A stretch of DNA of 64,000 nucleotides. Source: Malacoraja senta (Eukaryota). Position 1 is the first letter of the stretch; each line of letters opens with the position of its first letter. This document shows positions 10,017 to 56,459 of the stretch, piece by piece. The notes under the pieces were generated by a model, which did no database searches, was not told where the DNA came from, and saw nothing but the letters and a program-made list of their open reading frames with translations. The position numbers were made by a program, and so were the translations under genes. The DNA is taken from the NCBI GenBank assembly GCA_038087875.1, contig CM075987.1, positions 24,058,001 to 24,122,000 of the forward strand, read 5' to 3'.

Positions 10017-10602
10017 TTAGTTTGTTTTAGAGATACAGCACAGAAACCAGGCCCTTCGGCCCACTGCGTCCATGCCGACCATCGATCCCCGCACACTAAC
10101 ACTCTCCTACACACTTGGGACAATTTACCATTTTACTGAGGCTGATTAACCGACAAATCTGTATGTCTTTGGAGTGTGGGAAGAAACTGGAGCACCCAGA
10201 GAAAACCCACACAGGTCACGGGGAGACATGTACAAACTCTTTGGCACTGTAAAAGCCCTGTCCCACCGTACGAGCTCATTCCAAGAGCTCTCCCGAGTTT
10301 GCCCTGATTCGAACTCGGAGATTTACGGTAATGGCCACTCGTCGGTACTCGGGGCTCTCGAGGACATTTTTCATCAAGTTGAAAAATCTTCACGAGTCTT
10401 CCTGTGCTTACCTGCCGTTAGCGAGTCTTCCCGAGTACCTGCCGTTAGCGCTAAAAGACGTCCCCGAGCTCCGACGTACCCGCTACGTTCATTCTCCGTG
10501 CTTACCACGAGTTTGATTTTTATTTTACTCGGGAGAGCTCTTGGAATGAACTCGTACAGTGGGACAGGGCTTTAAGGCAGCAATTCTACCGCTGCATCAC
10601 CG
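10017..10602 (-). mobile_element. HE1-like tRNA/V-SINE interrupted by a MITE
   Basis: V-domain, CR1-like tail with (CTAAA)n; head split at TAA. Confidence 0.85.
10253..10572. mobile_element. Harbinger/PIF-like MITE (long-TIR family)
   Basis: About 45-bp TIR AAGCCCTGTCCCACYGTACGAGYTCATTCCAAGAGCTCTCCCGAGT; TAA TSD at 10250-10252 and 10573-10575. Confidence 0.9.
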
Positions 10603-11540
10603 TAAATTCTCATATAGAAAGAAAAGTTTATAATTCTCATTATAAAGAAAAGGTTCGAAAATTGAGCTTTTGAATAGATAGACAGTCAGAACCTTTGTCC
10701 CAGGTGGAAATGTCAAAGACTAGAAGGTGAGTGGAACAAAGTTTAAAGGCGACGTGCAGAGCAAGTTTTTGTTTACACATAGAGAGAGGGTGCCTGTAAC
10801 TTGTTCACAGGGGTGTTAGTGGAGCTGGATGGAGGTAGAGTCCAGGACCAGAGGTCACAGCCTCAGAATTACAGGACATTCCTTAAGGAAGGAGATGAGG
10901 AGGAATTTCATTAGTTGGATGGTGGTGAATCTGTGGAATTCACTGCCACAGAAGGCAGTGGAGGCCATCAATGGATATTTGTAAGGCAGAGATAGATAGA
11001 TTCTTGATTAATATGGGTGCCAAGGGTTATGGGGAGAAGGCAGGAGAATGGGGTTAAGAGGGAGAGATAGATCAGCCATGATTGAATGGTGGAGTAGACT
11101 TGATGAGCTGAATGGCCTAATTCTGCTCTGATCACTTCCGAACATGATATGATCGTGGCATTAAAGAGGGTTTTAGATGGGCACCACAGGGAATGGAAGG
11201 CAATGGATCATGTGTAGGCAGATGGGATTAGTTTATCTTGACATCATGTTTGGCACAGACCTTGTGGGCCATAGGACCAGTTCCTATGCTGTAGTGTTCC
11301 ATGTTCTACGTTCAGAGTTAAAATTGGATGGAGCTGCCAATAACGACCCACACATTTTCTTCGGAAGAGTGTTGTTTGAGAAAACTTTCCTATTGGCAAG
11401 CGCTGCTTTCAGTGCCTTTTTAATTTCTTTTGGAATGATTGAACACTTTTTTTTATGATTCCCTGATGAATCTGCAGCAGTCTACACATCTGGGAATCCT
11501 TCTAACATTTCGTTATTTTTCGGAGTGTGAGCACGGTGGG

Positions 11541-11852
11541 TGGCGCGGTGGAGCAGCGGTAGAGTTGCTGCCTTACAGCGCCAGAGACCCGCGTTCAACC
11601 CTGACTACGGGGTGCTGTCTGGACAGAGTTTGTACGGCCTCCAAGTGGCCGCGTGGGCTTTCTCCATCCGGGTGCTCTGATTACCTCCCACATTCCAAAT
11701 GATGTACAGGTTTGTCGGTTAACTGACTTCGGTAAAAATAGAAAATTGTCCCAAATGTGTGTAGAATGGTGCTAGCGTGCGAGGAACGCTGGTCGGTGCG
11801 GACTCGGTGGGCCGAAGGGCCTGTTTCTGCGATGTATCTCTAAACTAAACTA
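11541..11852 (+). mobile_element. HE1-like V-SINE
   Basis: A/B-box-like head, V-domain, tail gggccgaagggcctgtttc..tatctctaaactaaac. Confidence 0.85.
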
Positions 11853-11970
11853 ATACTGAGAAGATTGACTTGCTGGCCAGAGAGCAGTCAAGGGTCCTGG
11901 AACTCGAGTTAAATGTCAGCCAGACCAGGTAATATTAGCAGGTTACCTTCCCTGTAGGATGTTAGTTAAC

Positions 11971-12470
11971 TAGTTTAGTTTAGTTTATTAATTACGTTTA
12001 TTAGTGTCATGTGGACCGAGGTACAATTAAAAACTTTTTTGTTGCCTGCAATCCAGTCAGCGAAAAGTCTATACATGATCATAAATCAAGTGGTCCACAG
12101 TGTACTGATACAGGATGAAGGAATACCGGATGCAAGATAAAGTCCCGTAAAGTCCGATTGAAGATAGTCCGAAGGTCTCCAATGAGGAAGATTGTAGATC
12201 AGGACTGCTCTCTAGTTGGTGAGAGGATGGTTCGGTTGCCTGTGCTGGGAAGAAACTGCCCCTGAATTCGGAGGTGGACAAAAATGCTGGAGAAACTCAG
12301 CGGGTGAGGCAGCATCTATGGAGCGAAGGAAATAGGCGACGTTTCGGGCGGAGACCCTTCTTCAGACTGAATTTGGAGGTGTGCATTTCCACACTTCTTG
12401 CCTCTTGCCTGATGGGAGCGGGGAGAAGAGGGAGAGACCGGGTTGAGACTCGTCCTAGATGGGTTTTCAT
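11971..12470 (-). mobile_element. Rex/Babar-like 3' fragment carrying a Penelope-derived insert at 12277-12366
   Basis: Insert flanked by CTGAATTYGGAGGTG at 12262-12276 and 12367-12381. Confidence 0.75.
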
Positions 12471-12857
12471 AAGAACCTGGAGATTACGTGGTAATGATTA
12501 TAAAGAATAGCCAATTTAGGACCTAACTTTTAAATTCTCTCAGATTACCTGAAATTAAATTTCACAGTTACCACAGATGGTTATGAATTTTGTGTACCAG
12601 TGATTCTGGGTTACCGTTCTAATAATGTCACCATTGTACCCGTGTACTGCAAATTAAAATGCTTCGCCTACATAAAGGGAGCAACTGGAATCAGAATTTA
12701 GACATGTTGAAAACCAATTAATCTATTGTTGGAAGATGGTCAAGGTACACCTGAGGAGATTCACAGAGTCCTTTCCATCTATAATGTTAAAGTCACTTGT
12801 CAACGGATGAAATTGAAAGAAAGCAAAATGATCCTGAGAAGAACCAAGAGGTAGAAA

Positions 12858-13501
12858 TTTTAGTTTAGTTTAGAGATAAAGCCCTGTCCCACTGTACGAG
12901 TTTATTCAAGAGTTCTCCCCGAGTTTGCCCTGATTCAAACTCGGAGATTTACGGTAATGGCCACTCGTCGGTACTCGGGGCTCTCGTGGACATTTTTCAA
13001 CATGTTGAAAAATCTTCACGAGTCTTTCCGAGCTTACCTGCCGTTAGCGAGTCTTCCCGAGTACCTGCCGTTAGCGTTAAGAGCCGCTAAGAGACGTCCC
13101 TGAGCTCCGACGTACCCGCTACGTTCATTCTATGTGCTTACCACGAGTTTGATTTTTTTTTAACTCAGGAGAGTACTTGTATGAACTCGTACAGTGGGAC
13201 AGGGCCAATACAGCGCGGAAACCGGGCCTTCGGCCCACCGAGTCCGCACCGACCAGCGATCCCCACACACTAACACCATCCTACACGCACGAGAGACGAT
13301 TTACATTTATACCAAGCCAATTAACCTACAAACCTGTACGTGTTTGGAGTGTGGGAGGACACCTAACATCTCAGAGAAAACCCATGCAGGTCACGGGGAG
13401 AATGTACAAACTCTGTACAGACAGCACCCGTAGTTGGGATTGAACCCGGGTCTCTGGCGCAGGACAAGCGCTGTAAGGCAGCAACTCTACCGCTGCCACC
13501 C
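12858..13501 (-). mobile_element. HE1-like V-SINE with a MITE in its tail
   Basis: Full head, V-domain and tail; tail split by a MITE. Confidence 0.85.
12879..13207. mobile_element. Harbinger-like MITE (long-TIR family)
   Basis: Close copy of 10253-10572; 3-bp duplication ATA at 12876-12878 and 13208-13210. Confidence 0.85.
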
Positions 13502-13874
13502 GAAATCTTGGAGGAATGAAAGGTTTGAAACCGTGGAGTGTGAGGTTCAGGAGCTCGGTCCATAATTTTAATAAAGTTAACTTGAACCGAATGTTAAAAC
13601 AGTTCACCAAATTGAAATGTCGCCAGATAGTTCACACAACAGTTGGAGAGCATGGCTGGCATCTGCAAGATCCATCTGTACATGTGAACTTAATTAGGCT
13701 GAATAGCCTTCATGAACCACATTTAAATTGGAAATGTTTTTGTTTGATTAATCATACGTGTACACATGTAATACTACTTTGTACTATTACTATGCACTAT
13801 TAGTATGTACTATGTACTGTTACAATGTTCTACTACTAAATACTATTAACACATAACATTATGTTGATTCTGAT

Positions 13875-14235
13875 ATAAAATCATGAGAGGAATAGATTGG
13901 GTAGATGCATGATTCTCTTGCCCAGAGTACGGGAATCGAGGACCCGAGGACATAGGTTAAAGGTGAAGGGGAAAAGATTTAATAGGAATCTGAGGGGTAA
14001 CTTTTTCACGAAAGGGTGGTGGGTGTATGGAACAAGCTGCCAGAGGAAGTATTTAAGGCTGGGACTATCCCAACGTTTAAGAAACAGTTAGACAGGTGCA
14101 TGGATAGGACAGGTTTGGAGTGATATGGACCAAATGCAGGCAGGTGAGACTAGTGTAGCTGGGACATGTTGGCTGGTGTGGGCAAGTTGGGCCGAAGGGC
14201 CTGTTTCCGCGCTGTATCACTCTGTGACTCTATGA
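13875..14235 (+). mobile_element. CR1 LINE 3' fragment, (CTATGACT)-type tail
   Basis: ESRTRGHRLKVKGKRFNRNLRGNFF; 3' end shared with the SINE tail. Confidence 0.85.
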
Positions 14236-15409
14236 TGTTTGAATGATTGGACTGGAAGGCAAACAGCAATGATCCATTAATCAAATGATATGAGCAAAGT
14301 TCAGAGCTAAAACCCACTTAATAGCAATAAGCATCACATTATAACCTTGTTCAAAACATTGTAGTTTCCACAGAATATCCCTTGATTCTGTTAGTCCCAG
14401 GAGCTATATCTAGATCTCTCTTGAATACATCCAGTGATTTGGCCTCCACTGCCTTCTGTGGCAGAGAGTGAGTCCGCCTATCACATGCCAATTCTTGTCC
14501 CAGCCCTTGCCCGCACCTCTCTGCGCCAGCTTTCTCCCCTCTACTCCGTTTCGCAAGAGTCCTGGCCCCAAACGCCATCTGCCCATCTCACTCCACAAAT
14601 GCTGCCAGACCCACAGAGGACCTCCAGCGATCACACGGGTGTTTCGATTCACGCGAACAAACGCCCTCAAACGTTCTTGAGGTCCGTGAACAAGCCTTCT
14701 TCATGCACTTACATCCTTCTGGAACGTGCATAACTATTAGTTCTCTGCTAATTATCTAAGTAATTTCCAGATGAAATAACCTGATTTATGTTTCTGTGGA
14801 TTGGAAAAGAAAAATCGCTGGCATTCTATGGCAAACAAGGAGACAAGAGAGGTTCCACTTTCCACAGCTTCACTGTGGCCATGCATATTTTCCTTAAATT
14901 ATAATTAAAGGCAACAGCGAGGAAATATAACTCAAAGTCATAGTATTTACATAACGATGCATTACAGATGGTGGCAATCCTTGTCCAAGTAATGTGTGTT
15001 CCATCTGGATCGGATGCACCCGGCCAGAAAATACCAATTTAAAGTGACAACACAGCCTACAATGAAGCCCCACCGAAGATATGATGGAGTCACAGAGCTA
15101 ATGTTGAAATGCATCGGGGTGCTGTGACACAAAATCACCTCCTTACCTGATTTGAATTCGGACAGATCTCCATTCTCGTGAATCGGACATGTTACAAATC
15201 AATTATTTATGGGAGGGCCGTGTAAAATTGAAGGAGCTGAGGTTTCGTTCTCCTACTGTTCTGCTTATTGGACTAAGCAAAGCAGCACAGCACAGGAAGG
15301 CCGTGGAAAGCCTCCAGGGCTACAGCCCAGCAAGGGTTTGCCAGCGAGTTCTTTGACCTGAGTAATACAATACAAAAGGCAGGCTGTGGATACTGGGGAA
15401 GCCCTGCAT

Positions 15410-15890
15410 CGAGTCACACAGCGTGGAAACAGGCCCTTCGGCCCAACTTGCACACACCGACCAACATGTCCCATCTACACTCGTCCCACCTGCCTGCGTT
15501 TGGCCCGTATCCCTCTAAACCTGTCCTATCCATGTACCTGTCTAATTATTTCATAAACGTTACAATAGTCCCTGCCTCAACTACCTCCTCTGGCAGCTCG
15601 TTCCATACACCCACCACCCTTTAGTGTGAAAAAGTTACCCCTCAGATTCCTATTAAATCTTTCCCCCTTCACCTTAAACCTATGTCCTCTGGTTCTTGAT
15701 TTCCCCTACTGTGGGTGAGAGACTCTATGCGTCTACCCGATCTATTCCTCTCATGATTTTATACACCTCTATAAGATCACCCCTCATTCTCCTGCGCTCC
15801 AAGGAATAGAGTCCCAGCCTGCTCAAACACTCCCAATAGCTCAGATCCTCGAGTCCTGGCAGCATCCTCGTAAATCTTCACTGTGCCCTC
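15410..15890 (-). mobile_element. CR1 LINE 3' fragment
   Basis: Reverse complement of the 13875-14235 family. Confidence 0.85.
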
Positions 15891-16049
15891 TGTGTCTGAA
15901 GGCGAAGTGGATAAAGTCTCCTTCGCCTGAGTGTGGGTGACAACCTCAGTTTTGCAGTAAGCTGCAAATAGTGAGATATGATGGATATTGGCAGCAGAAG
16001 CCTAGAATAATTCTGAGGTAAGAAAGCTCAGAGAAATCTCCGTAAATTT

Positions 16050-16345
16050 AAGAGGACATGATTTGAGAATTAAGGGACAGAAGTTTAGGGGTAACATGAG
16101 GGGGAACATCTTTACTCAGAGAGTGGTAGCTATGTGGAATGAGCTTCCAGTGGAAGTGGTGGAGGCAGGTTCGATTTTATCATTTTAAAATAAATTGGAT
16201 GGGTATATGGACGGGAAAGGAATGGAGGGTTATGGTCTGAGTGCAGGTACTGTAGATGGGACTAGGTGAGAGTAAGTGTTCAGCACGGACTAGAAGGGCC
16301 GAGATGGCCTGTTTCCGTGCTGTAATTGTTGTAAGGTTATATGTT
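16050..16345 (+). mobile_element. CR1 LINE 3' fragment, (GTTATAT)-type tail
   Basis: RGHDLRIKGQKFRGNMRG..FTQRVVA.WNELP. Confidence 0.85.
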
Positions 16346-16966
16346 ATTTGGTAATAACTGTACAACTCCTCCCCCTTCTGCCGTGGGGTAGACTGACCCC
16401 TTCCTCCCCCTCCCCCACCCCCTCCCCAATCTTTGCACATCCCCCATCATGGACTTTCAACTCGTCACTTTAATTTCATGTTTCACGGACTTTGTTGTGT
16501 TTTATGATTGTTGGCAGATCAATTTCCCTCCTGGATAAATAAAGTTCTATCGTATCGTCTGGTATAGTATCGCATCGTAACGTATCATATCGTAAAGTAG
16601 TCAGTCCAGTTACAGTTAATATTTCAGGAGGTTCACAGATTTCAGGAAGAAGAAAGTATTAGGATTCTCTGTTTAAAAGTCTGACTGGCCTCCGGATTAA
16701 AATTTTATCTCTGTACGATTCGTTGTCAACCCCCCCCCTCGCTAACAATGATCTATTCAACATTTTCCTTGAACTTCGTCCCCTTTCATGTCTCAGTTTC
16801 ACGTGTCTCCCTCTCCCCGACTCTCAGTCTGAAAAAGACTCCTGACCCGAAACGTCAGCCATTTACTACAATCCAAAGATGTCGCCTGTTCCACTGAGTT
16901 ACTCCAACATTTTTGTGTCTAAAAGATAAGAACTATCCATTTAATGGATGAAGCAAGTGTTTTTTT

Positions 16967-17285
16967 AGAGTCATGGAGTCATTTAGAGTGGAAACAAGCT
17001 TTTCGGCCCGACTTGCCCACACCAACCAACAATGTCCCAGCTACACTAATCCCACCTGCCTGCGCTTGGTCCATATCCCTCCAAACATGTCCTATCCATG
17101 TACCTGTCTAACTGTTTCTTAAATGTTGGGATAGTCCCAGCCTCAACTACCTCCTCAGGCAGCTTGTTCCGTACACCCACACTGTGTGAAAAAGTTACTC
17201 CTCGGATTCCTATTAAATCTTTTCCCCTTCAACTTGAACCTATGTCCTCTGGTCCTCGATTCCCCTACTCTGGGCAAGAGACTCC
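16967..17285 (-). mobile_element. CR1 LINE 3' fragment
   Basis: ESRTRGHRFKLKGKRFNRN. Confidence 0.8.
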
Positions 17286-17356
17286 CACATGGGAAGTCTG
17301 TGGAACTCTTTTCCTCAAATGGAAGTGGAAAGCAGATGCTTTCGATTGTCTGGATC

Positions 17357-17669
17357 TTTAGCTTAGAGATATAGCATGGAAACAGGCCCTTCAGCCCACT
17401 GAGTCCATGTGGACTATCAACCACTGCTTCTGTCTATTCCAATTTCTCACCCACTCCAAATACACATTGGGTAATTTTACAGAGGCCAATCAACCTAGCA
17501 AATCTGCACGTCTTTGGGAAAGGGGAGGAAACCAGAGCACCTGGAGGAAGCCCAAGTGGTCATAGGGAGAGCAAGCAAACTCCTCACAGACAGCACCCAA
17601 GGTGAGGATTGAACCTGGGTCTCTGGCGCCGTGTGGCATCAGTTCTACCTGCTGCGTCACCGTGCCGCC
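17357..17669 (-). mobile_element. V-SINE, older subfamily
   Basis: Degenerate head, V-domain and tail. Confidence 0.75.
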
Positions 17670-17894
17670 CAGGTTGACAGGATATGCAATAGTGCAAATC
17701 TGAGGTAACCATCAAATCACCCGCGAACACTTTACAAGGCGGTTCAGGCTCAAGGGGCTGAATGAACCACACCTACTCGTAACTCCTACTGTATGTCCAC
17801 AAACAAACAAAGCACTTTGAGTGTCAGCCGGTTAAAAAACAAGGGGAAGTAGCATCAGTAAGAGTTAATCACTCTACCACTAAATCAGGACAAA

Positions 17895-18300
17895 AGACAG
17901 ACACAAAATGCTGGAGTAACTCAGCGGGTCGGGCAGCAACTCTGGAGAAAAAGGACGGGTGATGTTTCGGGTCAGGACCCTTCTGCAGACTGAAAGTAGA
18001 GTGGAGGGAACTGGAGGTCAGAAAAGGCCAGAACAACGCAGGGACGGCAACAGATGACCAAGGAAGGGTGGAGCCCATCATGGCACATTGTTGGCTGGGG
18101 AAGAGGTAATAACAAAGGTTTACAAGGATGTGAAGAATGGAACTAGTAGGGTGACTAGGGCGAAGGGGGGGAGAGGGAGGGGGGGGGGAAGAGAGGGAAT
18201 GCAAGAAATCAATGTTCATTCCGCTGGGTCGTAAGCTGCCAAGGCGAAATATGAGGTGCTGTTCCTCCAATTTGCGTGTGGCCTTACTCTGACAGTGGCC
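17895..18300 (-). mobile_element. Penelope-like element 3' fragment (GIY-YIG endonuclease C-terminus plus terminal unit)
   Basis: RKLEEQHLIFRLGSLRPSGMNIDF, followed downstream by a degenerate CTGCAGAAGGGTCCTGACCCGAAAC motif. Confidence 0.8.
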
Positions 18301-18882
18301 TCACTCAGGACTAATTTCAGGACAGGAATCAGGACTGTCATTTTTAAACTAATGAAGTGCCAAGCAAGCCCTGGGGATGAACATTGGCCTTTGGATGACT
18401 GTTGACATCAGTTGGGAAAGTTTTACACTGGAGAAAATGTCTTCATTAGGGCTACCTTCAGCAACAGACCGGCTCCACCAAGATGCAGTACAGAACGCCC
18501 CAGGAGATCCTTCTTTCATGTGGCTATCAAACGGTACAACTCCTCCTCCTTCCGTCGTGGGGTAGACTGACTCCCCCACCGCCCCCCCTCCCCCAATCTT
18601 TGCACATCCCCAATCCTTTCCACTCGTCACTTTAATTTCATGTTTCACGTATCTTGTGTTTCATGACTGTGGGCAGATCAATTTCCCTCATGGGATAAAT
18701 AAAGTTCTATCGTATCGTATGGTATCGTATCGCATCGTATATTATAAACTTCATGCGGGTAAGTCAAGGGTTGAATATGCAGCCAGGCATTGAGAACTGC
18801 ACGTTATATTGCTGCTTTACTGAGCAACTTTTTCAACGGCACAACCCAGTCTATGGCTTTACCTTGCACTAATAGTTATTCC

Positions 18883-19320
18883 ATAGAAACATAGAAACAT
18901 AGAAAATAGGTGCAGGAGTAGGCCATTCGGCCCTTCGAGCCTGCACCGCCATTCAATATGATCATGGCTGATCATCCAACTCAGTATCCTGTACCTGCTT
19001 TCTCTCCATACCCCCTGATCCCTTTAGCCACAAGGGCCACATCTAACTCCCTCTTAAATATAGCCAATGAACTGGCCTCAACTACATTCTGTGGCAGAGA
19101 ATTCCAGAGATTCACCACTCTCTGTGTAAAAAATGTTTTTCTCATCTCAGTCCTAAAAGATTTCCCCTTTATCCTTAAACTGTGACCTCTTGTTCTGGAC
19201 TTCCCCAACATCGGGAACAGTCTTCCTGCATCTAGCCTGTCCAACCCCTTAAGAATTTTGTAAGTTTCTATAAGATCCCCCCTCAATCTTCTAAATTCTA
19301 GCGAGTACAAGCCGAGTCTA
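18883..19320 (-). mobile_element. Young CR1 3' fragment, (TTCTATGT)n tail
   Basis: Open ORF LYSLEFRRLRGDLIETYKILKGLD...FFTQRVVNLWNSLP. Confidence 0.9.
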
Positions 19321-19833
19321 TTCCCTGATGTATCTGTACACTGTAAATGGCTCGATTGTAATCATGCATTGTCTTTCCACTGGTTACCACTCAACAAAAG
19401 GCATAGATAGAGTGGTTGTGGAGAGGATGTTTCCACTGGTGGGAGAGTCTAGGACCAGAGGTCACAGCCTCAGAATTAAAGGGTGCTCTGTTAGAAAAGA
19501 GGTGAGGAGGAACTTCTTTTGTCAGAGGGTAGTTAATCTGTGGAAATCATTGCCACTGAGGGCTGTGCAGGCCGTCAGTGAATATTTTTAAGGCAAAGAT
19601 AGAAATTCAAGATTAGAACGGGTGTCAAGGGTTATGGGAAGAAGGCAGGAAAATGGGATTGGGAGGCAGAGTTCAGCCATGATTGAATGGCGGAGTAGAC
19701 TCGATAGGCCGAATGGCCTAATTCTACTCCTATAGTTTACAAGAGAGAGTTGGATTTAGCTCTTAGGGCTAAAGGAATCAATGGATATGGGGGAAAAAGG
19801 CAGGAATGGGGTACTGATTTTAGATGATCAGCC

Positions 19834-26772: not shown

Positions 26773-27562
26773 AACTCTAACTCAAACCTTTCATGCTGCA
26801 GATTCAAGATCACATCAAATGGAGGTGTAGAAATATTTCCTCAAGTTCTGTATTACGTAACGTACAGAACTCTCCATGTTAAGGAATCATAATAGTACTC
26901 GTCAAATTAAAAAAATATTTTAAAACATCTTCCCACTCACATTCTCATTTCACAAAAAGTCTTAATTATTTATGTGATTGAAATACGATTTTTATCCATG
27001 AAGTGTATTTAAACATGTTGGATGTAGAAAAAAAAGGGGTCATTAAGTTGAAATATTAACTCTGTCTTACTCCGCTGATGCTGCTGGAACTGTTGACTTA
27101 TCCCAAACATTTTCTGTTTTCCTTTGAGATTCCAGAAAATGCAGTATTTCGGTTGAAAGCGATCAAATTCCTGCCTGCAGGTACAAATTTGAAAAGAAAA
27201 ATTCAAATCCGATCTTCATGCAAGAATGTTACAGCAAGTTTCTGAGAAATGGCTAATAGTTCATGAACATCTTTATTGGGAACATCATAGTTCAGCATTG
27301 TTCATTGCACCCAGAGGACTGTTATACCGTTTCCAAAAGCAAGTGTACATTGGGTCAAGGGAACGCAATGAGTTGAAAGGGCTTTTTTTTCTCATAAACA
27401 CTCTTTACCTCAGCTACAAAGAAAAATAAATTGCTGATTAAAGAATATGAAGTGCTTCAGAAATCTTTGTGATCAATGCAAAACGTCATTGCGTTTATTC
27501 TTTTAGAAGTAGAATGAGAAGTACTTTCGATGTATTCTTTAAAATTATTTCGTGCGGCCTTA

Positions 27563-27756
27563 ACGGCGTGTCCCACTTGACCGTCATTTGCGCGTCACGC
27601 AGATGGCGCGCAAAGATTTTGTACATCACAAAATCCTGCTACGCCGCGTGCGGCCGCTCGTCACTGCCTATGTCATCACGCACCACGTGCGCGTCGCGAC
27701 GCGTAAATGATGTCGCGTAAATTACGCGCAAATGACGGCCAAGTGGGACAGGCCCT
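27563..27756. mobile_element. Harbinger-like MITE (CpG-rich short family) in a V-SINE head (SINE runs to about 28021)
   Basis: About 33-bp imperfect TIR; TTA at 27560-27562 and 27757-27759. Confidence 0.85.
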
Positions 27757-28141
27757 TTAAGCACCAGAGATCCGGGTTTGATCCAGACCATCGGTGTTGT
27801 GGGCGTGGAGTTTGCACGTTCTCCCTGTGACCGCGTGGGTTTCCTCCCATGTTCCAAAGGCATGCAGGTTTGTAGGTTTATTGGCTTCTGTAAATTACCC
27901 CTAGTGTGTAGGATATAGAACTCGTGTGAATGGGTGATCGATGGTCGGCGTGGACTCAATGGGCCAGAGGGTCTGTTTCCATGCTGTATCTCCAAACCAT
28001 CCTAAACTAAACTAAACTAAACCAGAATTGAACAACAAAGTTAAACAACAAAGATTTGGACTGACTTTTAACCTTCTTCCCAGCTGTTATCAGGCAACTG
28101 AACCACTCTATCAACAACTAGAGAGTGGTACTGAGCTACTA

Positions 28142-43680: not shown

Positions 43681-43880
43681 NNNNNNNNNNNNNNNNNNNN
43701 NNNNNNNNNNNNNNNNNNNNNNNNNNNNNNNNNNNNNNNNNNNNNNNNNNNNNNNNNNNNNNNNNNNNNNNNNNNNNNNNNNNNNNNNNNNNNNNNNNNN
43801 NNNNNNNNNNNNNNNNNNNNNNNNNNNNNNNNNNNNNNNNNNNNNNNNNNNNNNNNNNNNNNNNNNNNNNNNNNNNNNNN
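43681..43880. other. Assembly gap
   Basis: 200 N. Confidence 1.
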
Positions 43881-47519: not shown

Positions 47520-47732
47520 CAAGGGATCCCAACCTGGGGTACATTTATCCCCAAGGGGTAAATTTGTTGATTCTGGATTTGTATACATTTTTTCTCATTG
47601 ACTGACTGTGTTTGGTTCTGGTACACCGGTATCTGTTCGTCATTAGTTGTTCATAAATAAGTGAAATAACATTGTTATGTGCTATTAAAGTTGCCAGGGG
47701 TAAACGGGACGAAAAAAGGTTGGGAACCCCTG
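47520..47732. mobile_element. hAT (Charlie-like) MITE
   Basis: TIR CAAGGGATCCCAACCT / AGGTTGGGAACCCCTG; TSD TTCTAAAC / TTCTAAAT. Confidence 0.85.
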
Positions 47733-47890
47733 TTCTAAATCCTTTACCTATATCTCTGTGATCATTGAGTAATTGCACCAAACAGCTGCCATGGATTGCT
47801 GACAGAATGGATGAAGTAGTCTATCCATTGCCAATCTCATCTTCTGCAGAGAGGCACGGCGTAAACTCCAACCCATTCTCGCACAGTCTT

Positions 47891-48745
47891 TTTAGTTTAA
47901 TTTAGTTTAGAGATACAGCTCGGAAACAGGCCCGGCCGTGATCCCCGCACACTAACACTATCCTACACACACAAGGGACGACTTACAATTATACCAAAGC
48001 CAATTAACCGACAAACCTGTACGTCTTTGGAGTGTGGGACATCCTGGAGAAAACTCACGCAGGTCTCTGGGAGAATGTACAAACTCCGTACAGACAGCAC
48101 CCATAGTCAGGATCGAACCCGGGTCCCTGGCGCTGTAAGGCAGCAACTCTACCGCTGCGCCGCTGTGCCGTACTCACAGAAGAAGACAATAGTTACCAAT
48201 ATGACTGGCTGTTGGGACATGAGACTATTTTGTGATGTTTTAGGCACTGCTACATAATTGATGCTCATTGATACCTTAGCTCAAAGTGGTTGTGTCCCTC
48301 ACACAGAATAATATTGTTACATTTAATAGAACCATTATTTTCCAAAATAATTCCCAAATATTTCTTTGATAGATCATTTTTATTTGCAGTTTGCACGGGT
48401 AACAAGATTTCAGCAGCACAGTGGCGCAACTGGCAGTGCAACTGTTTCAGTGCGCCAGAGACATAGATTCGATCCTGACCTCATGTGCTGTCTGTGTGGA
48501 GTCTGCACGTTCACCCAGTGGCCGTGTGGGTTCCCTACAGATGCTCCAGTTTCCTCCCGCATCCCAAAGACGTGCGGGCTGGTAGGTTAATGGGCCTCTG
48601 TAATTTACCCCTAGTGTGCCGAGAGTGGGTGTGAAAGAGGGTCAACATGAAACTACTGTGAATGGGTGATCGATGGCCGGCGTGGACAAGGTGGGCCGAA
48701 TGGCCTGCTTCCATGCCGTATCTTTCAATCAATTCAATCAATCAG
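47891..48745. mobile_element. Two V-SINEs (47891-48170 on -, 48415-48745 on +)
   Basis: Head, V-domain and tail in each. Confidence 0.8.
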
Positions 48746-49036
48746 TTATTGATTTTCCAATTAAACTGCCTTTGTTTATGATGCTAACAAAATATCCTTA
48801 GAAATTATAATGTAACAGTTGCCACAGTATATATTTAAAATCAGCTTGCAAAGGCTGTTGATTGAAGGCTCCTCACCGTGTGTGTGTGTGTGAATACCAA
48901 TTAAATAGTTAAACCTTTTAACAAAGAAAGTAATATCAGATCTTCAACCAAGACTATGGAAAAATTAATTCACAGGTTTTAATAGGGTTCTATTATAAGC
49001 AGGTATATGAATAAAACAGCATTCTCATATTCTTAC

Positions 49037-49112
49037 CCTTGTCCATTCAATGGAATTAACAAGTAATAGTCTTTCATAGGATTTACTAAATTGAGTCCCT
49101 TGCCCGTCAATG
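49037..49112 (-). CDS. Candidate 76-nt internal coding exon of an unidentified gene (x-IDGQGTQFSKSYERLLLVNSIEWTR)
   Basis: Acceptor ctggtttcttattgcAG|C, donor AGG|GTAAGA, open frame, unique AT-rich flanks. Confidence 0.6.
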
Positions 49113-49623
49113 CTGCAATAAGAAACCAGGACTTTGAAACTATGTGATGATGCAACTTTACATCGCTCTTCAATATTTCAAACTAAAGTTTGAATGACGT
49201 TTTTCAAATTACTTGTCACTTAATTTTAATCATATGCAGCTGTTTTGGCATCCAAATTCAGAGTTGTACATATCCCCTTTTTATTATGGATTTGGTGATT
49301 TTGTTTAAAAGATCATGAATGTTTCTATTCAATACCACAGTCAATTGTTGCTTACTGAATGGACAATATTCACTTTGAGTGAACTGAAGGCACCGTGGTG
49401 CAGCGGTAGAGTTGCTGCCTCACAGCACCAGGGACCCGGGTTTGATCCTGACTACGGGTGCTTGTCTGTACGGAATATATACGTTCTCCCCGTGACCTGC
49501 GTGGGTTTTATCTGGGAACTTCAGTTTCCTCCCACACTCCAAAGACGCACAGGTTTGTAGGTCAATTGGCTTGGGGTGACCTGTAAATTGTAAATTGTCC
49601 CTAGTGTGTGTAGGATAGTGTAA

Positions 49624-49942
49624 AGGGGCTGTCCCACTGTACGAGCTAATTCAAGAGTTCTCCCGAGTTTCCCCTGATTCGAACTCGGAGAATTACGGTA
49701 ATGACCGCTCGTAGGTACTCGGGGCTCTCGTGGACATTTTTCAACATGTTGAAAAATCTTCACGAGTCTTCACGAGCTTACCGCGTTTCCCGAGTACCTG
49801 CCGTTCGCGTTATGAGCCGCTAAGAGACTTCCCCGAGCTCCGACGTACCCGCTACGTACATTCTACGTGCTTACCACGAGTTTTAATTTTTTTTTGAACT
49901 CGGGAGAGCTCTTGAATTACCTCGTACAGTGGGACAGGCCCC
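49624..49942. mobile_element. Harbinger-like MITE (long-TIR family) inside V-SINE 49389-50023
   Basis: AGGGGCTGTCCCACTGTACGAG / CTCGTACAGTGGGACAGGCCCC; flanks TAA and TTA at SINE gatagtg[tta]gtgtg. Confidence 0.9.
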
Positions 49943-50888
49943 TTAGTGTGTGGGGATCGCTGGTCGGCGCGGACCCAGTGGGCTGAAGGGCCTGTTTCCA
50001 GCCTGTATCTCTAAACTAAACTGAAGAGCTCAAGTTGTACTATCAGCGGTAATGTATACTTGCATGCACAAAATGTACACCATCCGCAATGATTATGTTG
50101 TGTTTTTATTTTATCTTGTTTCCTTTTAAAGTGGTAGATGTTTCCCAGAATATGGGTGCAGAGACTTCATAAGCTTTATTCGAGAAAACTTCGCCAGTAT
50201 CCACATTCCTCTTCTATTTTATTTATTCAGTTTTTGGTCCTGGACATTACTGCAGAACCAGCATCCTTGAATTAGTTTAGTTTAGTTTAGAAATACACCT
50301 TAGGCCTACAGCGACCAGCGATCATCCATTCACACTAGTTCCATGTTATTCCACTTTCACATCCTGCACACTAGGATAATTTACAGAAGCCAATTAGTTT
50401 AGTTTAGAGATTTAGTTCAGTGATACAGTGTGGAAACAGGCCCTAAGGCCCACTGAGTCCATGCCAACCATCGATCACCCATTCACCAGTACTATGTCCT
50501 ACACACAAGCCACTTAAACTACAGACATGCACATCTTTGGAATGTGGGAGGAAAGCGGACCACCCCGAGAAAACCCACGTGGTCACAGGTAGAACGTGCA
50601 AACTCCGCACCGACATCACCCATAGACAGGATCGAACTTGGGTTTTTGCCGCAGAGAGATACCAGCTCTACTGCTGCGCCACTGTGCCCCAAATGACTGG
50701 CTTTCTGGGTAATTTCAGCGAGTAGAGAATATTTAAGAATCAACCGCACATATTGTCTGAAGGCACACATCGGCCAAACTGAGCAAGTATGGTAGATTTT
50801 CTTTAGTGAATAAATTGGGTTTCATAGGTCGCTACAAAATACTGGAGTAACTCAGCGGGACAGGCAGCATCTCTGGAGAGAAGGAATG

Positions 50889-50922
50889 GGTGACGTTTCG
50901 GGTCGAGACCCTTCTTCAGACT
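50889..50922 (-). ncRNA. Consensus minimal hammerhead ribozyme motif
   Basis: Minus strand AGT-CTGAAGA-A-GGGTCTCGACCC-GAAA-CG-TC-ACC. Confidence 0.6.
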
Positions 50923-51603
50923 GGTTCGTAGAACTAATCATTTGTTTTTCATAAGTTCTTAAGTTATAGGCATGCACCTTCAGCAACAGACTGGTTCCAC
51001 CAAGAGGCAGTACAGAACGCCACAGGAGATCCCTTTTCCCTGTGGCTCTCAAACTGTACAACTCCTCCCCCTTCTGTCGTGGGGTAGACTGACTCCTCTT
51101 CCTCCACCCCCTCCCCAATATTTGCTTGTCCCCAAACCTGGACTTTCCACTCATCGTTTTAATTTCATGTTTCACGTATCTTCTTGTGTTTTTCATGACT
51201 GTTGGAAGACTACTTTCCCTCCTGGGATAAATAAAGTTCTATCGTATCGGATCGGATCATATAGGAATAGAATGAGGCTATGCTGCCCATCAAGTATACT
51301 CCGCCATTCAATCATGGCCGATCTATGTTTCCCTCTCGACACCATTCTCCTGCCTTCTCTCCATAACCCTTGACACCCAGAATAATCAAGAATCTATCAA
51401 TCTCCTCCTTAGAAATATCGATTGTCTTGGCCTCCACAGCCGTCTGTGGCAATGAATTCCATAGATTCATCACCCTCTGACTAAAGATTTTATACCTCAA
51501 TTAAAAATGTCTGGATTAATTGAAATGAAATGTGAACTCAGCACTCCAAATGGCGAATCCAAGTAACTGGGTCTTTTTGAGTCCATGGAGCAGTACTTTA
51601 AAC

Positions 51604-51970
51604 CAAAGATCCTATAGCGAGCAAGATAGTCCACTCGACGAAAAAGACGTAGTACGGTCATGGGCAGATTCATGGGTCATTTTCGGCCCCATTTCCGTAA
51701 CCGGCTTCCGTCTCCGCACCAAAGATCCCGTAGCGGAGCAAAGATACTAGTGCGGAGACGGAAGCCGGTTACGGAAACATCCTCGTAAAAATAAAAGTTA
51801 TTTGGTAAAAATCTTCTCCTCATTTTCAGAATTATAATTTATTAACACAAACTGTTCCCCCGCAACGTTGATTACACTGCGAGTCGGGTTGGGTCGGGTC
51901 GGGTTACGGAAATGGTGAGCCCATTGCATTTAGCAGGAGTGGTCTATCTTGCTCCGCTATAGGATCTTTG
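51604..51970. mobile_element. Non-autonomous DNA transposon with 8-bp TSD (hAT- or P-like)
   Basis: About 34-bp TIR CAAAGATCCTATAGCG(G)AGCAAGATAGWCCACTC; CTTTAAAC at 51596-51603 and 51971-51978. Confidence 0.9.
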
Positions 51971-51978
51971 CTTTAAAC

Positions 51979-53150
51979 AGACAAGGTCCCACACAAGAGA
52001 TTAGTATGCAAACTTAAAGCACATGGTATTGGGGGTTCAGTATTGATGTGGATAGAGAACTGGCTGGCAGACAGGAAGCAAAGAGTAGGAGTAAACGGGT
52101 CCTTTTCACAATGGCAGGCAGTGACTAGTGGGGTACCACAAGGCTCAGTGCTGGGACCCCAGCTATTTACAATATATATTAATGATCTGGATGAGGGAAT
52201 TGAATGCAACATCTCCAAGTTTGCGGATGACATGAAGCTGGGGGCAGTGTAAGCTGTGAGGAGGATGCTAGGAGGCTGCAAGGTGACTTGGATAGGTTGG
52301 GTGAGTGGGCAAATGCATGGCAGATGCAGTATAATGTGGATAAATGTGAGGTTATCCACTTTGGTGGCAAAAACAGGAAAGTAGACTATTATCTGAATGA
52401 TGGCCGATTAGGAAAAGGGGAGATGCAACGAGATCTGGGTGTCATGGTACACCAGTCATTGAAAGTAGGCATGCAGGTGCAGCAGGCAGTGAAGAAAGCG
52501 AATGGTATGTTAGCATTCATAGCAAAAGGATTTGAGTATAAGAGCAGGGAGGTTCTACTGCAGTTGTACAGGGTCTTGGTGAGGCCACACCTGGAGTATT
52601 GCATACAGTTTTGGTCACCAAATCTGAGGAAAGACATTCTTGCCATAGAGGGAGTACAGAGAAGGTTCACCAGACTGATTCCTGGGATGGCAGGACTTTC
52701 ATATGAAGAAAGACTGGATAGACTTGGCTTGTACTCGCTATAATTTAGAAGATTGAGGGGGGATCTTATAGAAACTTACAAGATTCTTAAGGGGTTGGAC
52801 AGGCTAGATGCAGAAAGATTGTTCCTGATGTTGGGGAAGTCCAGAACAAAGGGTCACAGTTTAAGGATAAGGGGGAAGTCTTTTAGGACCGAGATGAGAA
52901 AATCATTTTTCACCGAGTGGTGAATCTGTGGAATTCTCTGCCACAGAAGGTAGTTGAGGCCAGTTCATTGGCTATATTTAAGAGGGAGTTAGATGTGGCC
53001 CTTGTGGCTAAAGGGATCAGGGGGTATGGAGAGAAGGCAGGTACAGGATACTGAGTTGGATGATCAGCCATGATCATATTGAATGGCGGTGCAGGCTCGA
53101 AGGGCCGAATGGCCTACTCCTGCACCTATTTTCTATGTTTCTATGTTTCT
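51979..53150 (+). mobile_element. CR1 LINE 3' 1.2 kb (RT domain, disabled)
   Basis: [40 protein letters not shown]; frameshift and stops; (TTCTATGT)n tail. Confidence 0.95.
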
Positions 53151-53767
53151 AAACACTGGAGAACAAATACATCTGATTGCAAGCACTCAGAGACTAAGCG
53201 TGGCGAGTAACACAACAGACTTGATCTTAAGTCCATACAAACGAACATTGGGAATAGGAATAGGAATACTTTATTCTCACATGTGAGTAGGCATAGTGAG
53301 ATTCTTTGCTTGCATACCCAATGTATACAAATAGCATCCACCTACAGCTCTCACAAAGTTACAAAGCCTGCCGGCTCCCCCTTTTTGTTTTCCACTCATC
53401 CCCCCGCCCCGGGTCCTCCATTGTTCTTCCCCTATTACTGCAGGGTCTGTTAAGTAACCATCAAACAAGGGTGAACCATTCCACTTAGAGCAATAAGGCT
53501 GTTTGCAATATCACACCGTCATCATGACCCAGGCTAATTACATTGTTATCCTATACTCGTGTATTGTCCTTGGTTCTCCAAAATATCACTGTCAAACTGG
53601 CTGTTGAAACATACCAAAAAACAATAGTCTGCATTAATACCTCTATTAGTAACCTGCTTATTACAATGAAAATGGTAAGATTGGCTTCCCTCCAGATTCC
53701 CAGAGCCATGGAACCTTTTCATTATGTTTTCAGCACTGCAATAAAACTGATGCTATTGAGTCTAGTG

Positions 53768-54040
53768 TAGTTTAGTTTAGAGATACAGCACGGCCCACCG
53801 AGTCCACGCCGACCAGCGATTTCCACACATTAATACTGTCCTACACACAACAGGGAAAATTTATAATTTTACCAAGCCAATTAACCTACAAACCTGTACG
53901 TCTTTGGAGTGTGGGAGGAAACCGGAGTTCCTGGGGGAAACCCACGCAGGTCACGGGGAGAGCGTACAAACTGCGTACAGACGGCACCCGTAGTCAGGAT
54001 CGAACCCGGGTCTCTGGCACTGTAAGGCAGCAACTCTACA
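53768..54040 (-). mobile_element. V-SINE
   Basis: V-domain and tail. Confidence 0.85.
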
Positions 54041-54895
54041 GCACAGAAACAGGCCTTTCTGCACAACTAGGCCATGCTGTCTGAGGTGCGTTCCTGAGTC
54101 AGTCACATTTGCCTGCATTCAGCCCACAACCTTTTCTATCTATGACCTTATCCAAATATTATAATCATACCCGCCTCTACCACTTCCTCTGGCAGTTCAT
54201 TCCTGAAATCCATGATTCTCTGTGTGAAAAAAACAGTCCCTCAGTTCCCCTTTAAATCTTTCCCCCCTTGCCCCGAACATATGTCCTCTGATCTTAAACT
54301 CCCCAACCCTGGGAAAGAGGGTGTGACCAAGCCACCTTTTCCATGCCCCTCAAGATTTATAAACCACTGTAAGGTCACCACTCAGCCTTGATTACTCCAG
54401 GGGAAAGAACTCCCAGCCAATCCATCTTTCCTTGTAATATAAGCCCTCCAGCCTTGGCTGGAAACTTTTCCGCACCTTTTCGAGCTTAATCACTTCTTCC
54501 TACAGTATGTTAACCTGACCTGTAGACACCAATCCAACAACACTTTGAACAATGTTTGTCCAGCTGTAACTTGACGCCTCAACTCTTCTACTTGATGCCC
54601 GTTCAATGAAGGCAAGCATGCTATGTGCCTTCTTCACCACCTTGTCTACCTGTGCCCTCAACTATGACCTTGTACCCTTAGGTCTTGTACCCTTAGAGTG
54701 CTGTTCTACAACACTTGTCAGGGCACTGTGGATGTCCAGCCCTGGTTTAACTTTCCAAAATGCATCGCTTCGCACTTGGAGGTGGTGCGATTCCATCTGC
54801 CATTCCTTTGCCTGCTTTCACAGTTTATCTGGATCCTGTTGTAACTTTCCTCACTGTCTACCACACCACCAAGTTTGTTGTCATCTGCAAACATA
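54040..54895 (-). mobile_element. Old CR1 fragment
   Basis: MFADDNKLGGVVDSEE, KCEAMHFG. Confidence 0.75.
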
Positions 54896-55311
54896 GCTCC
54901 AAAGCTGCGGCTAGCTTTCAGTACACATAAATAACGAATATGGGGATAATGGGGCGAGGGCAGGAGAATGGGGTTGAGAGGGAAAGATAGATCAGCCGTG
55001 ACTAAACGGCAGAGTGGACTTGATGGGCCGAATGGCCTAATTCTGCGCCGTGAACCTATGGACTTATGAAGTTCAATGATATGTTTCAATGGCAATTCTA
55101 AAGATTATGACTTTGGTTTTGTAGAAGCAAATGGATAGGCCAGGCAGAGATGATGTTTCAAGTAACGGGCTAGTTATTAAAACTGGAGCACACCAGGAGA
55201 CCAGCTGAAGCTGATCTGCCGATCATGACTTTAGTACAGCTTTTATATTCACAGGTGATAAGATTACACATAACTTGATTAACAGTAAAACTAGGTCTCA
55301 GTTACAGAATG

Positions 55312-55846
55312 GAGGTTGCAGAAGGACATTCTTGCTATTGAGGGAGTGCAGCGTAGGTTTACAAGGTTAATTCCCGGGATGGCGGGACTGTCATATGCTG
55401 AGAGAATGGAGCAGCTGGGCTTGTACACTCTGGAGTTTAGAAGGATGAGAGGGCTTCTCATTGAAACATATACGATTGTTAAGGGTTTGGACACGCTAGA
55501 GGCAGGAAACATGTTCCCAATGTTGGGGGTGTCCAGAACCAGGGGCCACAGTTTAAGAATAAGGGGTAAGCCATTTAGAACGGAGACGAGGAATCACTTT
55601 TTCTCACAGAGAGTAGTGAGTGTGGAATTCTCTGCCTCAGAGGGTGGTGGAGGCAGGTTCTCTGGATGCTTTCAAGAGAGAGCTAGATAGGGCTCTTAGA
55701 AACAGTGGAGTCGGGGGATATGGGGAGAAGGCAGGAACGGGGTACTGATTGGGGATGATCAGCCATGATCACATTAAATGGCGGTGCTGGCTCGAAGGGC
55801 CGAATGGCCAACTCCTGCATCTGTTGTCTATTGTGTATTGTCTATT
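55312..55846 (+). mobile_element. CR1 3' fragment
   Basis: KDILAIEGVQRRFTRLIPGM..LGLYTLEFRRMRG; (CTATTGT)n tail. Confidence 0.9.
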
Positions 55847-56071
55847 GAAAGACTTAATTAGGTAACAAATTAGGTCTGGATTACAGAATAAAATGATCAT
55901 CCACAAGTTAAACTTAGTTGACAGTAGATACAATTTTCTGTTTGCACCGTAACATCATCAATGAAGTTCCTGAACCTTAGATGTCGTCACTGCTACATTC
56001 CATGTTTCCACTTTTAGGCTTTGTCTGCAGGTCCCTGTCACCACATTAGCACAATCCATATCCCCATTTAC

Positions 56072-56459
56072 TAGTTTAGTTTAGTTTAGAGATACGGCAC
56101 AGAAACAGGTCCTCTGGCTCACCGAGTCCGCACCGACCAGCGATCCCCGCACACGAACACTATCCCACACACCCGCTAGGGACATTTTTACATTCAAACC
56201 GAACCAATTAACCTACAAACCTGTAAGCCTTTGGAGAGTGGGAGGAAATCGAAGATCTCGGAAAAAACCCACGCGGTCACGGAGAGAACATACAAACTCC
56301 GTACAGACATCGAACCCGGGTCTCTGGCGCTGTAAGTGGTGTAAAGGGCCTGTCCCACGGGCATGCGACTCGATGCGGCAAGCGCGACCTAACCGCAAGC
56401 GGGGGCGCGCGGAGATCGAGTGATCAGCAGCAACTCTACCGCCATGCCACCGTGCCGCC
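56072..56459 (-). mobile_element. V-SINE with a truncated Harbinger-like MITE (56345 to about 56425) in its head
   Basis: ..gtggtgTAA|AGGGCCTGTCCCACGG... then agcagcaactctacc. Confidence 0.8.

What the first reader, a model, noticed from the sequence alone, without database searches (positions are those of the whole stretch)
10250..56425. Different Harbinger-like MITE families hit the same triplet in the SINE's tRNA anticodon-loop equivalent
Seen: the SINE head reads CTGCC-TTACAGC-GCCAG-AGAC-CCGGGTTCGATCC. Three MITEs with unrelated interiors sit at that TTA (TAA on the other strand): 10253-10572, 27563-27756 and 56345-56425. A fourth at 139 follows the similar context ggcggctgtaa. Two more lie elsewhere in SINEs (12879, 49624). 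Established: Harbinger/PIF elements make TWA TSDs and can prefer extended target sequences. Inference: strong site preference for this SINE motif, or possibly for true tRNA genes, acting as a safe haven.
Basis: partly seen in the sequence, partly recalled or inferred. Interest (0 to 1): 0.75.

Follow-up and report, generated by a model that had tools for sequence, protein, structure and literature searches.

The report
Harbinger MITE insertion hot spot in SINE
Small Harbinger-type jumping elements have landed again and again on the same three bases of a very common SINE repeat, most likely because the bases around that spot suit the transposase, which is a known habit of this transposon group.

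Summary
The core observation is real. MITEs ending in GGGCCTGTCCCAC, with a 3-bp TWA target duplication, sit repeatedly at the TTA of TGCTGCC-TTA-CAGCGCC in the head of a very abundant SINE.

- **Rates genome-wide (1.94 Gb).** 634 of 81,303 5'-side views and 238 of 37,183 3'-side views of this site carry a MITE end. That is 19-23 times the mean per TWA site and about 50 times two other TWA sites in the same SINE (14 of 105,290; 15 of 103,149).
- **Independent insertions.** At least six MITE families use the site. Hot-site copies are interspersed with copies elsewhere in three family trees, and they are more alike than their host SINEs. Retrotransposed SINE+MITE composites are therefore rejected.
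- **Not a tRNA-specific site.** A second SINE site (GTG-TTA-GTG) is 11 times the mean, and a site in an unrelated repeat (GAG-TTA-CTC) is 6.5 times.
- **General flank preference.** Ends outside SINEs prefer A-S-W-S before TWA. This sorts hot sites from cold ones but under-predicts the SINE-head site about 2-5 fold.
- **Autonomous partner.** A 4.7-kb element with the same ends encodes a DDE_Tnp_4 transposase.

Of the window's examples, two are exact, one is offset and truncated, and one is not in a SINE. ARAGORN and Rfam do not recognise the head as tRNA. tRNA genes were not tested.

The parts
10253..10572 (.). MITE of family F6 (ends AAGCCCTGTCCCAC / its reverse complement) inserted at the hot TTA/TAA of a minus-strand SINE. 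TSD TAA at 10250-10252 and 10573-10575.
   Evidence: SINE body 10014-10239
10014..10252 (-). Body of the host SINE, the part 3' of the hot triplet. Its head continues at 10573-10610.
27563..27756 (.). MITE of family F3 at the same SINE triplet (plus-strand SINE). TSD TTA at 27560-27562 and 27757-27759. The SINE is clear on the 3' side only.
27757..28009 (+). Host SINE from the hot TTA onwards.
56345..56426 (+). Truncated terminal fragment (~80 nt, one subterminal unit, no right inverted repeat) of family F5. This is the family of the autonomous element L111+L116. It lies 9 nt beyond the SINE's TAA (56333-56335), after a second TAA (56342-56344).
56066..56475 (-). Host SINE of the 56345 fragment.
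49624..49942 (.). MITE of family F6 at the second SINE hot spot, GTG-TTA-GTG, in the SINE body.
   Evidence: genome-wide rate
12879..13207 (.). MITE of family F6 in the SINE 3' end (agag-ATA-cagc). The flanking triplets read TAA/ATA, so the TSD is not a clean TWA.
8179..8507. MITE of family F2/4 (TSD TTA). Its flanks were not examined for SINE or other repeat content: the flank BLAST kept only ends with A after the TWA, and these ends carry T.
138..300 (+). Left end of an F2/4-like MITE (inverted repeat from 140, one mismatch) after ggctg-TAA-aa. The right end was not found. The preceding 92-138 is not SINE.
1..95 (.). Right part of an F3 MITE that runs off the window start. It ends in GTGGGACAGGCCCT followed by TAA.

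Best explanation
A group of at least six Tourist-like MITE families shares the 13-14-nt end (A/T)GGGCCTGTCCCAC. They are moved by PIF/Harbinger transposases encoded in this genome. The transposition machinery cuts at TWA and also prefers certain flanking bases: roughly A-S-W-S before the triplet and its mirror after it, with G disfavoured at -2 and A/T disfavoured at -1. The TTA in TGCC-TTA-CAGC of the SINE head has C or G at all four key positions (-3, -1, +1, +3). The SINE is present in at least tens of thousands of copies (45,080 exact 14-mers of the unoccupied site). The same good target is therefore offered over and over, and independent insertions pile up on it. What is shown: the enrichment, the independence of the insertions, the shared flank preference, and the Harbinger membership. 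What is inferred: that the preference is a property of the transposase/ORF1 complex, and that nothing tRNA-specific is needed.
For: **Family basics**
- The exact end 13-mer occurs 60,281 times in the genome (reversed-pattern control 16). 47,369 of these are preceded by TWA+N.

**Rates per 10-mer view, with exact end**
- Hot site, 3' view: 238 of 37,183 (0.64%).
- Hot site, 5' view: 634 of 81,303 (0.78%).
- SINE-body site GATAGTG-TTA: 183 of 48,158 (0.38%).
- Other repeat, CGCTGAG-TTA: 417 of 190,257 (0.22%).
- SINE site TTGTAGG-TTA: 14 of 105,290 (0.013%).
- SINE tail GTATCTC-TAA: 15 of 103,149 (0.015%).
- Genome mean: 0.0335%. This uses a TWA frequency of 0.0364 per base, measured on the window only.

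**Unselected sample**
- In the first 100 TWA-N-end sites on contig C1, 4 ends are at the hot site (plus 1 ambiguous), 5 are at the second SINE site and 3 are at the other-repeat site.

**Flank preference outside SINEs**
- 99 ends with non-SINE flanks show C/G at -1 in 73% (background 36%), C/G at -3 in 66% (40%), A at -4 in 50% (31%) and G at -2 in 7% (19%).
- A position matrix built from these ends predicts both SINE hot spots and the other-repeat site to be hot, and the two cold SINE sites to be cold.
- Among 24 complete sample elements, targets with S at all four key positions are 6.7 times enriched. Targets with 0 or 1 S are at or below 0.12 times.

**Independence of the insertions**
- 30 fetched hot-site loci carry TAA/TTA on both sides and the SINE head beyond. 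29 distinct ends fall into six named families plus 4 unclassified.
- Hot-site copies are interspersed with copies elsewhere in three family trees: 3 label changes each, equal to the shuffled mean, and 0% of bootstrap trees show a single origin.
- MITE identity is 0.93 / 0.85 / 0.78 against host-SINE flank identity of 0.78 / 0.63 / 0.67.

**Harbinger membership**
- L111+L116 holds a 4.7-kb element with identical 40-nt ends, TSD TTA and a 302-aa ORF matching DDE_Tnp_4 at E = 1.7e-35.
- The genome gives 150 scored DDE_Tnp_4 matches out of 534 candidates.

**Published precedent**
- PIF/Harbinger elements show an extended target preference, 9 bp in plants and 15 bp in vertebrates (PMC2836001, passages read; PMC3016246, passage read).
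Against: - The additive matrix does not reproduce the magnitudes. It predicts 3.8 times (95% bootstrap 1.4-8.6, four flank bases) or 8.2 times (2.0-27, seven bases) for the SINE-head site, against 19-23 observed.
- It predicts 33-53 times for the SINE-body site against 11 observed, so the predicted rank of the two hot spots is reversed.
- The class 'S at all four positions' averages 6.7 times, based on only 6 of 24 elements. The head site is about 3 times above that.
- A natural test gave only a weak drop. SINE copies with T instead of C at -1 carry a MITE end at 23 per 2,423 unoccupied 14-mers (0.95%), against 634 per 45,080 (1.41%) for the standard site. The matrix predicts a 4.6-fold drop. 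Mutation after insertion could hide the effect, so the test is inconclusive.
- The matrix rests on 99 ends. The TWA background comes from about 170 kb, not the whole genome.
- All rates count only exact 13-nt ends and exact 10-mer flanks.
Confidence: 0.75

Rival explanations
1. On top of the local flank preference, something specific to the tRNA-like SINE head raises insertion there. Candidates are open chromatin or bound Pol III factors between the box-A-like and box-B-like motifs, or a hairpin formed by the short inverted repeat TGCTG...CAGCG around the triplet.
For: The head site is 2-5 times hotter than the additive flank matrix predicts, and hotter than the SINE-body site that the matrix ranks first. 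It is also about 3 times above the average of four-S targets. The -1 C-to-T variant lowers occupancy only to 0.68 of the standard.
Against: The seven-base matrix interval (2.0-27) overlaps the observed value. Non-tRNA sites are also hot, at 11 and 6.5 times the mean. ARAGORN and Rfam do not recognise the head as tRNA. No chromatin or expression data were examined.
Confidence: 0.15
2. Each SINE+MITE composite descends from one or a few founding insertions that were then copied by retrotransposition as a SINE subfamily.
For: None found beyond the recurrence itself. One pair of fetched loci (L018/L019) is a duplicate of a single insertion.
Against: Six named families plus unclassified ends occupy the site. 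In three families the hot-site copies do not group together: 3 label changes each, and 0% of bootstrap trees show one origin. The MITEs are more alike than their host SINE flanks. Both junctions carry a TWA duplication.
Confidence: 0.02
3. Insertions are random among TWA sites. The pile-up reflects only the abundance of the SINE, or better survival of insertions inside a harmless repeat (a safe haven).
For: The SINE is very abundant: about 25 copies in 64 kb and 45,080 exact 14-mers of the unoccupied site.
Against: The rate per available site is 19-23 times the genome mean. It is about 50 times that of two other TWA sites in the same, equally harmless SINE. Within the window, P = 0.0015.
Confidence: 0.03

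Closest known systems
PIF/Harbinger superfamily with Tourist-like MITEs (maize PIF/mPIF, rice Ping/Pong/mPing)
   Same: 3-bp TWA duplication, terminal inverted repeats, and many short non-autonomous families sharing ends with a DDE_Tnp_4 element. The insertion preference extends about 3-4 bases on each side of the triplet. PMC2836001 (passages read) states a 9-bp preference for PIF and mPing.
   Different: This is a 1.94-Gb genome that is not a plant. The preferred flanks read here (A-S-W-S | TWA) come from my own logo and were not compared base by base with published logos. The exact PIF consensus is only recalled, and a text search for it found 0 papers. The main visible target here is an abundant SINE.
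Harbinger3_DR of zebrafish
   Same: A vertebrate Harbinger with a pronounced target-sequence specificity, described as a palindromic 15-bp consensus (PMC3016246, passage read), and a two-protein requirement (PMC2836001, passage read).
   Different: The preference here is much looser, about 1 bit per half-site. Many different sites are used, and only 4-5 of 100 sampled ends lie at the SINE-head site.
Analysis of nested MITE insertions (Jiang and Wessler 2001)
   Same: The same logic: repeats inserted into repeats are used to read target preference.
   Different: Seen only as an entry in the reference list of PMC2836001. The paper itself was not read.
Pol III-gene-targeting retroelements (Ty3 of yeast, TRE elements of Dictyostelium; recalled, no call)
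   Same: Recurrent insertion associated with tRNA-type sequences.
   Different: Those elements integrate at a set distance outside tRNA genes through contact with Pol III factors. Here a DNA transposon lands inside the tRNA-like region at a TWA, and equally at sites that are not tRNA-like.

Membership tests
PIF/Harbinger DNA transposons (and their Tourist-like MITEs) | 3-bp target site duplication of the form TWA | tested here: met
   47,369 of 60,281 exact ends are preceded by TWA+N. Of 32 complete sample elements, 24 have TWA at both junctions, and 19 of those 24 carry the identical triplet on both sides.
PIF/Harbinger DNA transposons (and their Tourist-like MITEs) | Terminal inverted repeats shared between MITEs and an autonomous element | tested here: met
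   L111+L116: identical 40-nt ends at 584(+) and 5290(-) of the joined locus. These match the F5 MITE ends, including the fragment at window 56345.
PIF/Harbinger DNA transposons (and their Tourist-like MITEs) | DDE transposase of the PIF/Harbinger type inside the element | tested here: met
   A 302-aa ORF matches DDE_Tnp_4 at E = 1.7e-35 (122 bits, cut-off 24.8) and Plant_tran at 6.7e-07. The genome gives 150 scored matches of 534 candidates.
PIF/Harbinger DNA transposons (and their Tourist-like MITEs) | Second ORF with a Myb/SANT-like DNA-binding domain | tested here: inconclusive
   A 172-aa frame on the opposite strand matches MADF_DNA_bdg at E = 0.0024 (18.6 bits), below the 22-bit cut-off.
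PIF/Harbinger DNA transposons (and their Tourist-like MITEs) | Insertion preference extending beyond the triplet | tested here: met
   The logo from 99 non-SINE ends shows signal at -4 to -1 (relative information 0.15, 0.23, 0.12, 0.42 bits). Per-site rates differ by about 50 fold.
tRNA-derived SINE (the target) | Head recognisable as tRNA-like, so that the triplet can be assigned to the anticodon loop | tested here: not met
   ARAGORN finds 0 genes in the window. Rfam gives no match at gathering score, and one clean head gives no tRNA match at E up to 10. Box-A-like and box-B-like motifs and the loop assignment rest on reading the sequence and on recall.
Pol III-directed integration (Ty3/TRE type) | Target chosen by position relative to a Pol III gene rather than by local sequence | tested here: not met
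   Insertions require TWA and follow a flank preference that is also seen outside SINEs. Non-tRNA-like sites are hot as well.

The most novel reading that the evidence does not exclude
The SINE-head TTA is hotter than any purely local sequence rule allows, because the tRNA-like promoter region is held open or bent in the germ line by Pol III factors or by a small hairpin. If so, a DNA transposon would be using Pol III-type repeats, and perhaps true tRNA genes, as preferred landing pads.
Probability: 0.12. Interest if true: 0.6.

Novelty: new member of a known kind. Interest (0 to 1): 0.3.

Why it matters
The result gives a clean, quantified case of target-sequence preference for a vertebrate-type Harbinger group. 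About 60,000 exact ends are available, and a very abundant SINE acts as a natural target library. Within one repeat there are hot and cold TWA sites about 50-fold apart.

It has three practical uses:
- annotating nested repeats in this genome;
- avoiding the mistake of treating shared SINE+MITE composites as subfamilies or as shared-ancestry markers, because the same site is hit independently;
- designing target-choice experiments for PIF/Harbinger transposases.

It does not reveal a new mechanism.

Tried and rejected
- **Whole genome as a file.** I therefore used whole-genome pattern counts and small stretches, so no genome-wide logo or repeat masking was possible.
- **Leading Ns.** Leading Ns in a pattern are trimmed, so flanks could not be read from the hit list.
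- **Typed SINE consensus.** Mapping was done against real window copies instead.
- **-1 C-to-T variant of the hot site.** The drop was weak and confounded by mutation after insertion, so it is inconclusive.
- **Loose flank classes.** The regex classes ('hot1', 'S4') gave false positives. Six labels were corrected by eye for the trees.
- **Rows left out of the trees and identity comparison.** Four duplicate records (L001, L002, L005, L019) and elements longer than 450 bp.
- **tRNA detection on the SINE head.** Nothing found.
- **Earlier notes of this scan.** None for this genome.
- **Literature.**
  - A search on Harbinger, MITE, SINE and target site preference listed 15 of 226 papers; a search on Harbinger, elasmobranch, transposable elements and SINE listed 15 of 632.
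  - None of the listed titles or abstract starts describes MITE hot spots in SINEs.
  - Only the listings and passages of PMC5738225, PMC3016246 and PMC2836001 were read, so this is not proof that no such report exists.
- **True tRNA genes.** Not examined.


Full report
**What is in the window**

The window is part of contig C11 of a 1.94-Gb eukaryotic genome. It holds about 25 copies of one SINE of roughly 330 bp. It also holds eight insertions of short elements whose ends read (A/T)GGGCCTGTCCCAC and are preceded by TTA or TAA.

- The element at 10253-10572 sits exactly between ctg-TAA and TAA-ggcagcaa of a minus-strand SINE.
- The element at 27563-27756 sits at the same triplet of a plus-strand SINE. 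Only the 3' side is clearly SINE.
- The piece at 56345-56426 is an ~80-nt terminal fragment. It starts after a second TAA, 9 nt beyond the SINE's own TAA.
- The end at 140 follows ggctg-TAA-aa. The 47 nt before it are not SINE: alignment score 24 against a shuffle mean of 23.7.
- Two further elements lie elsewhere in SINEs: 12879-13207 in the tail and 49624-49942 at GTG-TTA-GTG.
- With 2,325 TWA sites and 17 copies of the site (15 unoccupied-pattern matches with TTA intact plus 2 occupied), two or more hits among eight insertions has P = 0.0015.

**Genome-wide test**

- The exact 13-nt end occurs 60,281 times, against 16 for the reversed control. 47,369 of these follow TWA+N.
- The window's TWA frequency is 0.0364 per base; window plus 35 loci give 0.0342. 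This gives a mean of 0.0335% of TWA 'views' carrying such an end.

Rates for specific 10-mer views:

| Site | Ends / views | Rate | Fold over mean |
|---|---|---|---|
| SINE head, 3' view | 238 / 37,183 | 0.64% | 19 |
| SINE head, 5' view | 634 / 81,303 | 0.78% | 23 |
| SINE body, GATAGTG-TTA | 183 / 48,158 | 0.38% | 11 |
| SINE, TTGTAGG-TTA | 14 / 105,290 | 0.013% | 0.4 |
| SINE tail, GTATCTC-TAA | 15 / 103,149 | 0.015% | 0.4 |
| Unrelated repeat, CGCTGAG-TTA | 417 / 190,257 | 0.22% | 6.5 |

The head site is therefore far hotter than TWA abundance predicts, and about 50 times hotter than two other TWA sites of the same SINE. This removes regional or 'harmless repeat' explanations. The head site is not the only hot spot, and the other two hot spots have nothing tRNA-like about them.

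**An unselected sample**

I fetched the flanks of the first 100 TWA-N-end sites on contig C1.

- Four ends are at the head site (L042 twice, L054, L069), and one is ambiguous (L045).
- Five are at the SINE-body site (L052, L080, L089, L103 twice).
- Three are at the other-repeat site (L041, L084 twice).
- After removal of duplicates, 15 of 97 sample ends have SINE-like flanks.

**Independent insertions or copied composites?**

- Thirty fetched head-site loci show TAA or TTA on both sides, with the SINE head beyond. L018 and L019 are duplicates of one event.
- Their 29 distinct ends fall into F1 (5), F2/4 (9), F3 (3), F5 (4), F6 (2), F7 (2) and unclassified (4). This mix resembles the random sample of 97 ends: 11, 49, 11, 11, 6, 0 and 9.
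- In trees of F1, F3 and F6 the head-site copies are interspersed with copies from other places. Each tree needs three label changes, equal to the shuffled mean, and 0% of bootstrap trees show one origin.
- Head-site MITEs of one family are more alike (0.93, 0.85, 0.78) than the 80 nt of host SINE around them (0.78, 0.63, 0.67).
- Four duplicate records and elements longer than 450 bp were left out of these comparisons.

The composite-retrotransposition rival is rejected.

**What the elements are**

- The genome gives 150 scored DDE_Tnp_4 matches out of 534 candidates. Many have open frames of 440-480 aa.
- One locus, extended by 5 kb, holds a complete 4.7-kb element. It has identical 40-nt ends of the F5 type and TTA on both sides. 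A 302-aa frame matches DDE_Tnp_4 at E = 1.7e-35. On the other strand there is a weak Myb/SANT-like (MADF) match, E = 0.0024, below the cut-off.
- With the TWA duplication, this places the group in PIF/Harbinger.

**Why this triplet**

- Ninety-nine ends whose flanks are not SINE prefer C/G at -1 (73% against 36% in 11,629 background views) and C/G at -3 (66% against 40%). They also prefer A at -4 (50% against 31%) and avoid G at -2 (7% against 19%).
- The head site (TGCC-TTA-CAGC) and the body site (AGTG-TTA-GTGT) have C/G at all four of -3, -1, +1 and +3. The two cold sites break the rule on one or both sides.
- Among 24 complete sample elements, such four-S targets are 6.7 times enriched. 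Targets with 0 or 1 S are at or below 0.12 times.
- This is the extended target preference described for the superfamily: 9 bp in plants and 15 bp in vertebrates (PMC2836001, passages; PMC3016246, passage).

**What does not fit**

- The additive matrix predicts 3.8 times (1.4-8.6) or 8.2 times (2.0-27) for the head site, against 19-23 observed.
- It predicts 33-53 times for the body site, against 11 observed.
- SINE copies with T at -1 carry ends at 23 per 2,423 unoccupied 14-mers, against 634 per 45,080 for the standard site. That is a ratio of 0.68, where the matrix predicts about 0.22. Mutation after insertion may blur this.
- A head-specific boost of 2-5 fold from chromatin or DNA shape therefore remains possible. 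It is my most novel reading.

**Limits**

- ARAGORN and Rfam do not recognise the head as tRNA.
- True tRNA genes were not examined.
- All rates rest on exact 13-nt ends and exact 10-mer flanks.
- The background TWA frequency and the matrix come from about 170 kb and 99 ends.

**Verdict**

This is a real, recurrent, multi-family insertion hot spot. It is best explained by the known kind of extended target preference of PIF/Harbinger transposases acting on a very abundant SINE. It is a new, well-quantified example rather than a new mechanism.

Noticed in passing
window 352, 3139, 9226, 33458, 43274, 50867, 57199, 60644 (and others): A second abundant repeat contains CTGCCTGTCCCGCTGAGTTACTCCAGC. 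Its 10-mer CGCTGAGTTA occurs 190,257 times in the genome, partly in about 66-bp tandem arrays (for example C1 around 2.79 Mb). It has its own MITE hot spot at GAG-TTA-CTC (417 ends). Part of it resembles the MITE end and gives false end matches at 2-3 mismatches.
   Followed up: partly
window 63931; SINE 3' domain in general: The SINE 3' domain contains GAAGGGCCTGTTTCC, which shares 10 bases (AAGGGCCTGT) with the MITE end. This produces false end hits. It was not explored whether it is chance or a sign of shared ancestry.
   Followed up: no
genome loci listed: More than ten loci give the same DDE_Tnp_4 score (121.6 bits) with open frames of 478 aa. This suggests a young, possibly still active Harbinger family.
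   Followed up: no
L007 (G000:C1:6357379-6360402): Two different SINE copies within 3 kb each carry a MITE of a different family at the head site.
   Followed up: partly
window 13455-13475 (minus-strand SINE): This SINE copy has 11 extra bases (TTGTCCTGCGC) 7 nt downstream of the hot TTA. It could be a small duplication or a repair scar. Not resolved.
   Followed up: no
window 56333-56344 and L045: In two cases the MITE end is separated from the SINE's own triplet by about 9 extra bases that end in a new TAA (ctgTAAgtggtgTAA; ctgcaaacactgTAA). The origin is unknown.
   Followed up: no
window 43681-43880: A run of 200 N, either an assembly gap or a withheld stretch.
   Followed up: no
window 12879-13207: The MITE in the SINE tail is flanked by TAA on one side and ATA on the other. 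The duplication is not a clean TWA.
   Followed up: no
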